Assembly (NCBI GenBank): GCA_965287045.1
Contig: OZ336883.1
Span: 31,744,001-31,808,000 of the forward strand
Origin: Carcharhinus amblyrhynchos
Taxonomy: Eukaryota
Direction of reading: 5' to 3'
DNA: 64,000 nucleotides
A program made the position numbers. How positions within the stretch are numbered: position 1 is the stretch's first letter; each line of letters begins with the position of its first letter. Shown here one piece after another: positions 1 to 3,000 of the stretch.

Positions 1-3000
1 TTCTCATTCCGCACTGTATCTTTAATCCAAGAAAATACTCCTCACCTTGAGGTTTTCATAGTTAAGGTCAGTTTTGTGCTTGTCAGTAGGTTTATAGCCA
101 CCGTGACGGTCTCGAATTACTGGGTCAAAGAGGTCCTTGAAAACCTCATAGGATTCTTCATCACCAGCAACACAACCTACTGTCATAATAAATGGGTGAC
201 CTGTACAGGGAGAAAAGGGGGACAGATCCATCTTAATGCACGTAGACCTTCCGTTAATTGATACATGCAAGGTTAATAATTAAAAATCAGCCGTTCAGTG
301 CGAGAAGCCGTGTTTATTTTAACTAGAAGACAAGCATAAAGCAGCATGTCTTCAAAAATATTTGAACTAACTTTTTGTTTTGACTGGGAGCAACTTTTTC
401 CAATATTATGATTGGGATGGATCACTGATCATTACATCTTCTAACGTATTTACTTTAGAGTGAAATATACATGTTTGCAAAGGCATAAAAATATCAAGTG
501 GTTATATCACCAGGGGTAGTTTTACGTCTGGTGATAACGTGTGGCGATTTATCGCAGACAAAGCATCCCGGAGCCGACCACATTGTAAAGTCTCTCCACC
601 CAATCTGATGTGATCAATAATCTCAATTTAAAATGTTTTACCGGGATTATCAACCCCTGTCTGAATTACATCATCCAAAGTGAAGCCACTGGGGGTGGAT
701 TTGTTTTGGAGTTTCTTGTAGAGGTCCAGAGTGAGCACCTTGGCCATGTGGTTGTTGTGTTTGCTCAGGTCGGGGAACTCTTCCTGGGCCGACAGCCTCT
801 TTATCTTTAGCGGGGCCATGGCGGGGGGAGGCTCACAGCTACACGGAATGAAAACCAGATACAACAATGAGACGGATCACACATCACATTCGCCATCCAC
901 TATCCCTCCTTTTCACAGAAGGTCGCTGGCCGTGGACATCTCAATCCATTCGGGGAGTGGGGTAGTATCTGAAAGCCATGAGGCTAAAACCAAGGACAAC
1001 CATTATAAAAAAAAGAGGATTATCACTTTTTTAAAAAGTTAACGATCCTCGCTGGTTTAGTTTGTAGGCAGGCTACTAACACAGCCGACAAAACAAAGTG
1101 GGGGGTTTGGGGTCAATATTTTTCCTCATTGGTGATTCCCTGGTGGCCTTTGGAAAGCAACACCTTCTGTAAACAAGGGGAGAGCAGACGGCTCGTCCGA
1201 ATGCGGCTTTTACCTGGGTTGTCAACCCCGGTCTGAATGACATCGTCAAGGGTAAATCCGCTGGGGGTCTGCTTATCTCGCAGCTTGCTGTACAAGTCCA
1301 GGGTCAGGACTTTAGCCATGTGGTTGTTATGTTGGCTTAAATCCGGGAATTCTTCCTTAGCGGAATATTTCATCTTCAGAAGGTTGTGGCTGTTGCTGAA
1401 TGGCATGGTTACCGCTTTACTGCAACACAAACAAGAGGGTTTTATGTATACACACACAAATAAATCCGATTTAATGCGGATTCCTGGTGTTAAGACTTTG
1501 AATTGTTTTGGTCTAACTGATGTAAATAATGCTTATTAAGAATTTAAATTGAGTCCCATTTGCAGATTTTTAAAACAAAACATGCCATTCAGCAAGAATG
1601 CGAGTGAATTCGAAAACTAATTAAATAATCCGACATTTACAAAGTGCTTGAAATAGATAATCTAAAAGCAACTTCTGAGTGAATGCGGCAGTCCTTTGCA
1701 TCTTTCAGACGCTCTAATCCCCTCGCAATCAGAGCAATGACTAAACACGATTTATTTTTTTAAAAAAATATAAATCTCGACATTTAGGGACGTTAAACAC
1801 CTTTCTTGCCCGTTCCATCCTTCTAGAAAGGCGATTTCATTGCCGATTAATTAATAATAACCCCTTGACATCCGCGTTACAGAAGACCTTATTGGATTCT
1901 CAAACAACCTTACGTTTACGTAAATTCCTCGTCCTTCCTGACCCTTTCGCATTGTATTCCAAGCAGAGAATTTAAGGGCAATTGAAGTACAGCAGCTATG
2001 TGTTAGGTCCAGATTAGAGCCAATGGATTAACACAAATACCATTCGTGATCCTTTCCAATACAAATAGCCGGCCGGGGTGGGGGAAGAGAGGAGAAAGAG
2101 CTTTTCTTTCGTTTAAGTGCAAATAAACGATATTTGAATGCTAATTCACAGATGAAAAACATTTTACTAACTAGGAAATTGCCATTGAGGTAGCAGAAGG
2201 TCCATAAAGCGCCACTCAAATATATTTCTTCAACACTGGTTTAGCAATCAATGCTCAAGAGGATTCTTTCAGAGCCACCATACATCCAAATGGATTATTT
2301 TTTTCTAGGTCGGTAATGATGAGCATTTGGTTATTAAATTAACAGTACAACCATCGCTTAAAAAAAACCTTGGTTAATTCCGAAACCAATTTTAATTCTG
2401 CTTCTCAAACGATATCTAATTTATTTAAATTAGATGTGTTAAATTTGCATTTCTGCTAGATTCTTCATCGCAAATGAAGATGCATGACTTTGAAATTAAG
2501 AGCATGGCAAAAATAAGAATTTGCAATTGCATTGTAGCGGCCAGGTTTTTAGTTTGCCGCAATGACCTTACCTGGATGGTGGGAATTTTGGAAGAAACCA
2601 GTATTAATTCTCAGCCTGAGCTGGGTTTTTTTTCCCCTCTGCCTGTATCCGCGCCACACTGATTGGTGTCCGGCCACTCCGCACCTTCCCATTGGATTAT
2701 ATAGCGCAGCAGAGCCGCGCTCCAATTGGCTGCTTCATTGCAGCCCCATTCACTGGATGGCCTGTCAATCAAAGAGCACGGCTGGAGGGGCGGCGACGTC
2801 ATCACCCGGCGCCCCAGGACAAGGCGGTGACGTGATTAGTGTGCGCCCAGAGTCAATTCGGTGGAGGTGAGTTTTTTTCTCCAGGCTTATCCCCACGTGC
2901 GTTAGAAGAGGCTTTTGGATTCAGGAGCGCTGAAAGCCCGTAAGGTTAGCCAGGCATTCATAGAATCCCTGCCGCGCGGGTGGAGGCCATTCGGCGCATC

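What the first reader, a model, noticed from the sequence alone, without database searches (positions are those of the whole stretch)
642..1419. Shark CKB has two tandem, mutually exclusive first coding exons (Ba/Bb-type N-termini)
Seen: two intact homologous exons, each with its own acceptor, ATG and phase-1 donor. They are 44/50 aa identical in the core but have different N-termini ([14 protein letters not shown] vs MAPLKIKRL) and many synonymous differences, indicating an old duplication under purifying selection. Established: chicken B-CK yields Ba and Bb isoforms by alternative second exons, and mammals use only the MPFSNSH form. Inference: the dual-exon design predates the chondrichthyan/osteichthyan split rather than being avian. 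The short form lacks Ser6, reported as an AMPK site in BCK, so it may be regulated or localised differently.
Basis: partly seen in the sequence, partly recalled or inferred. Interest (0 to 1): 0.75.

Follow-up and report, generated by a model that had tools for sequence, protein, structure and literature searches.

The report
Duplicated alternative start exons in CKB
A brain-type creatine kinase gene of a non-mammalian vertebrate carries two intact, anciently duplicated copies of its first coding exon, which would give the enzyme two different front ends, a design so far described in chicken.

Summary
On the minus strand lie a non-coding exon 1 (ends 2572), exon 2a (1419-1214), exon 2b (838-642) and exon 3 (200-46). 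Both second exons have an AG acceptor, an ATG, a GT donor and phase 1. Their cores are 44/50 aa and 110/150 nt identical. Differences by codon position are 7/3/30, synonymous sites are saturated, and the flanking introns do not align. This points to an old duplication with both copies under purifying selection.

The gene is a CKB orthologue: the start of 2a is identical to the chicken B-CK chain 1qh4, and TRMT61A lies head-to-head. Including both exons gives a stop 29 nt into 2b, so only one exon per mRNA is productive.

Not shown here: any transcript, orthology of 2b with the chicken Ba exon, an origin before the cartilaginous/bony fish split, or that the animal is a shark. No vertebrate sequence collection was available, and the chicken papers are not held.

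New here: a predicted 35-pair RNA helix (z about -3.5) that buries the acceptor AG and the AUG of exon 2a. It may control exon choice.

This is a new member of a known kind, of moderate interest.

The parts
2662..2729 (-). Putative core promoter: CCAAT at 2729-2725, TATATAA at 2703-2697, CCAAT at 2695-2691, CCAAT at 2666-2662
   Evidence: Read directly. Function is inferred and the transcription start was not determined.
2572..2672 (-). Non-coding exon 1. The 3' end at 2572 is firm (CCAG|gtaagg, donor matches 8/9 of the consensus). The 5' end, about 2672, is a guess from the TATA position.
   Evidence: There is no ATG in its last 88 nt.
1555..1601 (-). Intron-1 RNA element complementary to the acceptor and start of exon 2a; contains a GCAUG at 1585-1581
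   Evidence: 35 predicted pairs with 1430..1389, including a 15-bp perfect core (1595-1581 with 1393-1407). Each arm is the other's best partner within the 2660 nt of pre-mRNA scanned.
1214..1419 (-). Exon 2a: first coding exon, canonical B-type N-terminus (MPFSNSH..., Ser6 present), 64 codons + 1 nt, phase 1
   Evidence: (best PDB hit is the chicken B-CK chain 1qh4, E 2.5e-32, 55/63 identical, first 14 aligned residues identical).
642..838 (-). Exon 2b: alternative first coding exon, short basic N-terminus (MAPLKIKRL...), 59 codons + 1 nt, phase 1, strong start context GCCATGG
   Evidence: (28 PDB sequences at E<=1e-3, best 1vrp M-type CK at 5.5e-25, aligned only from residue 9).
46..200 (-). 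Exon 3 (155 nt), common to both forms. It carries Lys at the positions called K104 and K115 in M-CK.
1..3250 (.). CpG-preserved domain (observed/expected 0.57-1.13) covering the promoter, exon 1, both alternative exons and exon 3. The window median is 0.21.

Best explanation
The window holds the 5' part of a vertebrate brain-type creatine kinase gene (a CKB orthologue) on the minus strand. A non-coding exon 1 is followed by two tandem, homologous first coding exons, 2a and 2b. Each can be spliced between exon 1 and exon 3 on its own.

The result would be two subunits that share everything from residue 65 onward but differ in the first 59-64 residues.
- The 2a form has the canonical MPFSNSH N-terminus, including Ser6.
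- The 2b form is five residues shorter, more basic and lacks Ser6. It also has six substitutions in the core, one of them Lys at the M-CK 'K24' position.

Only one exon per mRNA is productive. Including both puts a stop codon 29 nt into 2b (a target for nonsense-mediated decay). Skipping both removes the start codon.

The pair comes from an ancient tandem exon duplication, and both copies have been kept under purifying selection.

Inferred, not shown:
- Exon choice is regulated, possibly by a long RNA helix between intron 1 and the acceptor/AUG of exon 2a that would mask 2a and favour 2b.
- The two N-termini give different regulation or localisation, for example loss of the AMPK-Ser6 route in the 2b form.
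For: - Anatomy: both exons have AG...GT, an ATG, phase 1 and open frames. There is no upstream ATG in the last 88 nt of exon 1 or in the short leaders of 13 and 19 nt.
- Selection: the core has 44/50 identical residues but only 110/150 identical bases. Differences by codon position are 7/3/30 (p 1.2e-7). Same-codon use is 16 of 43, against 14.8 expected at random. 13 of 18 four-fold sites differ. dN is 0.095. The intron flanks score at shuffle level (7 vs 8.2 +/- 1.5; 6 vs 7.7 +/- 1.2).
- Gene identity: the best PDB hit of 2a is the chicken B-CK chain 1qh4, with its N-terminal 14 residues identical. Three coding pieces of TRMT61A lie on the opposite strand, head-to-head (Pfam GCD14 E 5e-25, 2e-42, 6e-30; human TRMT61A 5ccb E 1.1e-40). 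A paper on the human chr14 locus lists CKB and TRMT61A together (passage).
- Exclusivity: reading through both exons meets a stop after 74 codons, 29 nt into 2b. The only in-frame ATG in exon 3 is at codon 70.
- Alternative-exon character: splice signals are weaker at 2a and 2b (donors 7/9 and 6/9, pyrimidine fraction 0.61 and 0.70) than at exon 3 (8/9, 0.87).
- Helix: MFE -52.8 kcal/mol, z -3.45 with 0/200 shuffles as stable, and z -3.8 with 0/100. P(paired) is 0.80 for the AG and at least 0.99 for the AUG. Four control contexts give z from -0.81 to +0.08. A perfect inverted repeat of 15 nt or more occurs in 2 of 500 shuffles.
- Precedent: the title of Wirz et al. 1990, seen in a reference list.
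- Ser6/AMPK: review passage.
Against: - There is no transcript or junction evidence of any kind, so use of 2b is inferred from conservation alone.
- Constraint is measured over the whole time since duplication. A recent loss of 2b function cannot be excluded.
- Only exons 1-3 are in the window; the catalytic part of the gene runs off its start.
- Exon 3 scores higher against all five M-type PDB chains (E 1.7e-30 to 5.9e-29) than against the B-type chains (1.2e-27 and weaker). It also has Lys where chicken B-CK has E104 and Q115. The protein is therefore not B-like at every diagnostic site.
- The core of 2b also scores slightly higher against M-type chains.
- The RNA helix is a thermodynamic prediction on a single sequence. 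There is no covariation test and no evidence that it forms in vivo or affects splicing.
- The donor of 2b matches the consensus at only 6/9 positions.
Confidence: 0.7

Rival explanations
1. Exon 2b is a lineage-specific duplication within cartilaginous fishes, or whatever lineage this is. It only resembles the chicken Ba/Bb arrangement by convergence, so the design is not ancestral to jawed vertebrates. This rival concerns the history and is compatible with 2b being functional.
For: - Nothing here ties 2b to the chicken Ba exon.
- In the core, 2a and 2b are closer to each other (44/50) than either is to the chicken B chain. My counts from the printed rows are about 42/50 for 2a and about 40/50 for 2b; one search printed no chicken row for 2b, so that second count compares the 2b row with the chicken row.
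- In this gene the MPFSNSH form is the more acidic one (net -1 against +1). From memory, the chicken MPFSNSH form is the basic 'Bb' one.
Against: - Synonymous sites are saturated and the flanking introns are unalignable. The duplication is therefore very old.
- Fifty residues under strong constraint carry too little signal for the 44/50 figure to indicate a recent common origin.
Confidence: 0.3
2. Exon 2b is not spliced to exon 1. It is the start of a separate transcript driven by an internal promoter in the 2a-2b intron, so the alternative is one of promoter and first exon rather than a cassette choice.
For: - The whole stretch 1-3250 is CpG-preserved, including the 375-nt intron upstream of 2b.
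- An AT-rich TATA-like stretch lies about 170 nt upstream of 2b.
Against: - 2b has an AG acceptor with a 70% pyrimidine tract and candidate branch points at -33 and -14, only 19 nt before its ATG.
- The title of the chicken paper attributes the two forms to alternative splicing of one gene.
Confidence: 0.12
3. Exon 2b is a silent relic: a pseudo-exon that is no longer used, or is used only to make unproductive transcripts.
For: - There is no expression evidence.
- Its donor is the weakest of the four (6/9).
Against: - It has an open frame, an ATG in a strong context and intact AG/GT.
- Only 3 of the 40 core differences fall at second codon positions, against 30 at third positions (p 1.2e-7).
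- Neutral flanks have decayed beyond alignment while the exon keeps 88% protein identity.
Confidence: 0.07

Closest known systems
Chicken B-creatine kinase Ba/Bb isoproteins (Wirz et al. 1990, J Biol Chem 265:11656; seen only as a reference-list title; details recalled)
   Same: [quoted passage not shown] One of the two N-termini is the MPFSNSH type, and here it is identical over the first 14 aligned residues to the chicken B-CK chain 1qh4.
   Different: The organism is different. Orthology of 2b with the chicken Ba-specific exon, the order of the two exons in chicken, and the charge relation were not compared because no chicken Ba sequence could be obtained. This gene's exon 3 carries the M-type lysines, which chicken B-CK lacks.
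Mammalian CKB (PDB chains named 'Creatine kinase B-type', e.g. 3b6r, 4q2r)
   Same: Exon 2a aligns end to end (1-64 to 1-64) at E 2.4e-29 and 9.2e-29. Ser6, reported as an AMPK site, is present in 2a.
   Different: From memory, only one first coding exon is described for mammals; this was not tested here. The 2b form has no equivalent among the PDB chains, and its first 8 residues align to none of the printed hits.
Muscle-type CK and its M-line 'lysine charge clamps' K8/K24 and K104/K115 (Hornemann et al. 2000, PMC2175123; abstract and passages read)
   Same: Exon 3 has Lys at both 104 and 115. Exon 2b has Lys at 24 and a Lys/Arg cluster near position 8.
   Different: The gene sits next to TRMT61A and has a B-type N-terminus in 2a, so it is not CKM. 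Exon 2a has Leu8 and Gln24. M-line binding was not tested.
Annelid glycocyamine kinase alpha and beta chains (PDB 3l2e, 3l2d)
   Same: This is another phosphagen kinase with two chains that differ at the N-terminus. My exons align to alpha from residue 10 and to beta from residue 23-24. From memory, the two chains arise by alternative splicing of N-terminal exons.
   Different: The enzyme and phylum are different. The splicing origin is recalled only, and a paper search for it found nothing (0 papers).
Mutually exclusive homologous exon pairs from tandem exon duplication, some controlled by competing RNA helices (general class; recalled)
   Same: Adjacent homologous exons share the same phase, their lengths are not multiples of three so double inclusion breaks the frame, and there is a long helix at one acceptor.
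   Different: Only one helix was found, with no competing 'selector' for 2b (2b acceptor context z -0.33). The regulatory role is unproven.

Membership tests
Phosphagen (ATP:guanido) kinase / cytosolic creatine kinase | N-terminal domain PF02807 | tested here: met
   Exons 2a, 2b and 3 match PF02807 at E 6.3e-16, 4.7e-16 and 2.8e-11, all above the curated cut-off. The top ten PDB hits of each exon are cytosolic CKs.
Phosphagen (ATP:guanido) kinase / cytosolic creatine kinase | Catalytic C-terminal domain with the active-site Cys | not testable with these tools
   Exons 4 onward lie beyond the start of the window.
CKB (brain-type) orthologue | B-type N-terminal sequence | tested here: met
   Residues 2-15 of 2a are identical to the chicken B-CK chain 1qh4, which is the best of 27 hits (E 2.5e-32).
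CKB (brain-type) orthologue | Conserved neighbourhood: TRMT61A adjacent | tested here: met
   GCD14/TRMT61A coding pieces lie on the + strand within 18146-18517, 33189-33506 and 45051-45419. The human locus lists CKB with TRMT61A. Immediate adjacency in human is recalled.
CKB (brain-type) orthologue | B-type residues at the M-line clamp positions (E104/Q115 in chicken B-CK) | tested here: not met
   Both positions are Lys, as in the M-type chains. I take this as a lineage difference or an ancestral state, not as grounds to call the gene CKM.
Chicken-type Ba/Bb alternative first coding exons | Two tandem homologous coding exons after a non-coding exon 1, each with its own ATG, in the same phase | tested here: met
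Chicken-type Ba/Bb alternative first coding exons | Both exons appear, one at a time, in mature mRNA | not testable with these tools
   No transcript data were available. Only the frame argument applies.
Chicken-type Ba/Bb alternative first coding exons | The second exon is orthologous to the chicken Ba-specific exon | not testable with these tools
   No vertebrate sequence collection was available. Wirz 1990 and Hossle 1986 are not held. PDB holds only the MPFSNSH form.
Mutually exclusive exons enforced by frame/NMD | Double inclusion or double skipping destroys the reading frame or the start | tested here: met
   Double inclusion gives a stop 29 nt into 2b, which is 168 nt before the next junction. 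Double skipping leaves only an in-frame ATG at codon 70.

The most novel reading that the evidence does not exclude
The 2a/2b pair is an ancestral feature of jawed-vertebrate CKB, retained for more than 400 million years in cartilaginous fishes and birds and lost in mammals. Exon choice is set by a structured RNA switch: an intron-1 element forms a helix of about 35 bp that buries the acceptor AG and the AUG of exon 2a and diverts splicing to exon 2b. The resulting subunit lacks the AMPK-Ser6 site and carries three of the four M-type 'charge clamp' lysines, making it a B-type kinase that can be anchored like the muscle enzyme.
Probability: 0.15. Interest if true: 0.6.

Novelty: new member of a known kind. 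Interest (0 to 1): 0.4.

Why it matters
Creatine kinase B buffers ATP locally, and its N-terminus carries the reported AMPK site that steers it to the endoplasmic reticulum. A second, conserved N-terminus without that site would mean that many vertebrates make two differently addressed forms of the enzyme from one gene.

If the pair is shared with birds, the mammalian single-exon gene is the derived state. Findings on Ser6 regulation in mammals would then cover only half of the ancestral repertoire.

The predicted helix over the exon 2a acceptor gives a concrete handle, testable in a minigene, on how the choice is made.

On present evidence this is a sound annotation-level result that extends a 1990 chicken finding. 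It is not a new principle.

Tried and rejected
- **Exon phylogeny.** PDB holds only MPFSNSH-type B chains.
  - 'Ba-CK' or 'Bb-CK': 89 papers hold one of the two terms; none of the 20 listed holds 'Ba-CK', and the 'Bb-CK' matches are BB-CK because the search ignores case.
  - 'Ba-CK' with 'creatine kinase' and 'alternative': 0 papers.
  - Title words of Wirz 1990: 3 papers, and only a reference-list entry was relevant.
  - Creatine kinase with mutually exclusive or alternative splicing: 97 papers, and none of the 20 listed was relevant.
  - Creatine kinase with exon duplication: 3 papers (versions of one work; 1 listed), on mouse heart.
  - Ba/Bb phrase variants: 5 papers, none relevant.
  - Glycocyamine kinase splicing: 0 papers.
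  - Shark, CKB, exon: 64 papers, and none of the 15 listed was relevant.
  - Wirz 1990 and Hossle 1986 are not held. A Wallimann review has no mention of splicing.
- **Third exon copy.** None in the 64 kb.
- **Antisense genes.** Plus-strand ORFs over the exons and promoter, and two nearby minus-strand ORFs, gave 0 Pfam families in 6 of 6.
- **Rfam and tRNA scans.** 0 and 0 hits, so the 'tRNA-derived' label for the SINE rests on a box-B-like motif and on memory.
- **Structure at the other splice sites.** No folding signal at the 2b acceptor, the exon 3 acceptor or the two donors. The other inverted repeats in 1-2700 are short or low-complexity.
- **First shuffle null.** My first null for inverted repeats was confounded by overlapping A/T palindromes. 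I replaced it.
- **GCAUG motifs.** 2 in 2660 nt, which is not more than expected.
- **Spliced model.** Exons were searched one by one.
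Full report
**What is in the sequence**

On the minus strand the window starts inside a creatine kinase gene whose 3' part runs off the window's start.

- **Promoter-like stretch.** CCAAT at 2729-2725, TATATAA at 2703-2697, CCAAT at 2695-2691 and CCAAT at 2666-2662.
- **Exon 1.** Non-coding, ends at 2572 (CCAG|gtaagg).
- **Exon 2a (1419-1214, 206 nt).** AG acceptor, ATG at 1406, 193 coding bases, GT donor, phase 1.
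- **Exon 2b (838-642, 197 nt).** AG acceptor, ATG at 819 in the strong context GCCATGG, 178 coding bases, GT donor, phase 1.
- **Exon 3 (200-46, 155 nt).** Completes the split Gly codon and continues the frame.

The introns are 1152 nt (exon 1 to 2a), 375 nt (2a to 2b) and 441 nt (2b to exon 3).

**Is the similarity real, and how old is it?**

The two exons encode [14 protein letters not shown] and MAPLKIKRL, each followed by a 50-residue core that is 44/50 identical.

- The nucleotide alignment scores 73, against 10.8 +/- 1.8 in 200 shuffles.
- tblastn finds the two copies and nothing else in the 64 kb.
- The core is only 110/150 identical in bases. The 40 differences fall 7/3/30 on codon positions 1/2/3 (chi-square p 1.2e-7).
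- Of the 43 codon pairs that encode the same residue and have synonymous alternatives, 16 use the same codon. Random choice would give 14.8.
- 13 of 18 shared four-fold sites differ.

Synonymous sites are therefore saturated, while dN is 0.095. The 100 nt on either side of the exons align no better than shuffled sequence. Together this indicates a very old tandem duplication in which both copies have been held by purifying selection for most of the time since. A decaying pseudo-exon would not show it.

**Which gene is it?**

I searched the spliced model exon by exon. The joined protein was not searched or folded.

- Exon 2a is best matched by the chicken brain-type chain 1qh4 (E 2.5e-32; 55/63 identical by my count from the printed alignment; first 14 aligned residues identical; 27 PDB sequences at E<=1e-3).
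- All three exons match PF02807.
- On the opposite strand, head-to-head, lie three coding pieces of TRMT61A. Their Pfam GCD14 profile positions are 1-48, 48-139 and 134-247 of 247. The best PDB hit is human TRMT61A 5ccb at E 1.1e-40.
- A paper on a human chr14 locus lists CKB and TRMT61A together (passage). Their immediate adjacency in human is my recollection.

I therefore call the gene a CKB orthologue, with one caveat. Exon 3 scores higher against all five M-type chains (E 1.7e-30 to 5.9e-29) than against the B-type chains (1.2e-27 and weaker; 43 sequences listed). It also has Lys at the two positions, 104 and 115, that Hornemann et al. 2000 found sufficient to make chicken B-CK bind the M-line. 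Chicken B-CK has E and Q there (abstract and passages).

**How it most likely works**

*Shown by the sequence.* Either exon alone gives an open frame into exon 3. Both together give a stop after 74 codons, 29 nt into 2b and 168 nt before the next junction, which by the established rule makes the transcript a target for nonsense-mediated decay. Neither exon leaves only an in-frame ATG at codon 70. Only one exon per mRNA is therefore productive. The 375-nt intron between them is too long for steric exclusion.

Both alternative exons have weaker signals (donors 7/9 and 6/9, pyrimidine fractions 0.61 and 0.70) than exon 3 (8/9, 0.87) and exon 1 (8/9). This fits regulated use.

*Inferred.* Two subunits result.
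- The 2a segment has net charge -1 (pI 6.2) and keeps Ser6.
- The 2b segment has net charge +1 (pI 8.1) and is five residues shorter. It has no Ser before residue 10, where the context KRLS looks like a basophilic-kinase site (my reading). It differs in the core at positions 17, 25, 40, 43, 44 and 46, including Lys at the M-CK 'K24' position.

A review reports that AMPK phosphorylates B-CK at Ser6 without changing activity and directs it to the ER near SERCA (passage). A 2026 preprint calls Ser6 a putative site (passages). The 2b form would escape that route.

**A possible switch**

An inverted repeat stands out. An intron-1 element (1601-1555 in the RNA) is complementary to the acceptor and start of exon 2a (1430-1389).

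- The minimum-energy fold of 1610-1380 has 35 pairs between the two regions. These include a perfect 15-bp core over the AUG, and CUGCAA pairing with the UUGCAG of the splice site.
- MFE is -52.8 kcal/mol, z -3.45 with 0/200 shuffles as stable, and z -3.8 with 0/100.
- Pairing probability is 0.80 for the AG and at least 0.99 for the AUG.
- Same-sized contexts at the 2b acceptor, the exon 3 acceptor and the two donors give z -0.33, -0.81, -0.25 and +0.08.
- A perfect inverted repeat of 15 nt or more, with a 20-1500 nt gap, occurs in 2 of 500 dinucleotide shuffles of 1-2700.
- Each arm is the other's best partner in the 2660 nt of pre-mRNA scanned (-36.5 kcal/mol, against -24.9 for the next separate site).

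I propose that this helix masks exon 2a and favours exon 2b. This is a prediction from a single sequence, with no covariation or experimental support.

**What remains open**

- There is no transcript evidence.
- I could not compare 2b with the chicken Ba-specific exon. No vertebrate sequence collection was open, PDB has only the MPFSNSH form, and Wirz 1990 and Hossle 1986 are not held. I saw only the title of Wirz 1990 in a reference list.
- The claim that the design predates the cartilaginous/bony fish split is therefore plausible, given the saturation, but untested. A lineage-specific, convergent duplication remains a serious rival (about 0.3).
- That mammals lack a 2b-like exon was not tested.
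- 'Shark' was not verified. The window is a CpG-depleted (median observed/expected 0.21), 39.6% GC vertebrate sequence. It has gaps of about 14.7 and 11.5 kb between the TRMT61A coding pieces and many copies of a SINE with a box-B-like GGTTCGATTCC motif. From memory that repeat looks elasmobranch, but Rfam and ARAGORN found nothing. I do not take the window for human.

**Novelty and verdict**

None of the ten searches of the open library found a description of this arrangement outside chicken. The library lacks most subscription journals, and public gene annotations, which I could not see, may already show both isoforms.

I file it as a new member of a known kind, with interest 0.4.

Noticed in passing
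window 1555-1601 and 1389-1430 (minus-strand RNA): A long predicted RNA helix (35 pairs, 15-bp perfect core) joins an intron-1 element to the acceptor AG, 5' leader and AUG of exon 2a. z is -3.45 (0/200 shuffles) and -3.8 (0/100). A perfect inverted repeat of 15 nt or more occurs in 2/500 shuffles. The other four splice-site contexts show no such signal.
   Followed up: partly
window 46-200 (exon 3): This B-type gene has Lys at both 'strong' M-line clamp positions (104, 115), where chicken B-CK has E and Q. The exon scores higher against M-type than B-type PDB chains. This may be an ancestral state or a functional difference.
   Followed up: partly
window 18146-18517, 33189-33506, 45051-45419 (+ strand): Three coding pieces of TRMT61A (GCD14 domain, profile positions 1-247 covered) lie head-to-head with the CK gene. 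They are separated by about 14.7 and 11.5 kb, which means very long introns. Exact exon borders were not determined.
   Followed up: partly
window 1-3250: This is the only contiguous CpG-preserved block in the window (observed/expected 0.57-1.13, against a median of 0.21). It spans the promoter, exon 1, both alternative exons and exon 3, although GC is only 35-57%.
   Followed up: no
window 2662-2729 (minus strand): The promoter-like arrangement is CCAAT, then 21 nt, then TATATAA immediately followed by CCAAT, then a third CCAAT. From memory it resembles the CCAAT/TATA-like/CCAAT layout of mammalian CKB promoters. This was not tested.
   Followed up: no
e.g. window 3157-3262, 4840-4945, 20713-20900, 36390-36700, 41800-42105, 52850-52921, 57085-57390, 62028-62243, 63193-63700: A SINE-like repeat family is present in many copies in both orientations (61-89% identity between copies). 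It has a GGTTCGATTCC box-B-like motif and gives spurious ORFs containing 'PWSCEAAVLTT'. ARAGORN and Rfam did not call it.
   Followed up: partly
window 47923-48001, 51195-51273, 60817-60895; also 52619-52716 and 63361-63458: Further dispersed repeat families of 79 and 98 nt, 65-89% identical, of unknown type.
   Followed up: no
window 26993-27265 (minus strand): A low-complexity stretch translates as poly-Gly/Glu and (ER)n. It is probably a purine-rich simple repeat.
   Followed up: no
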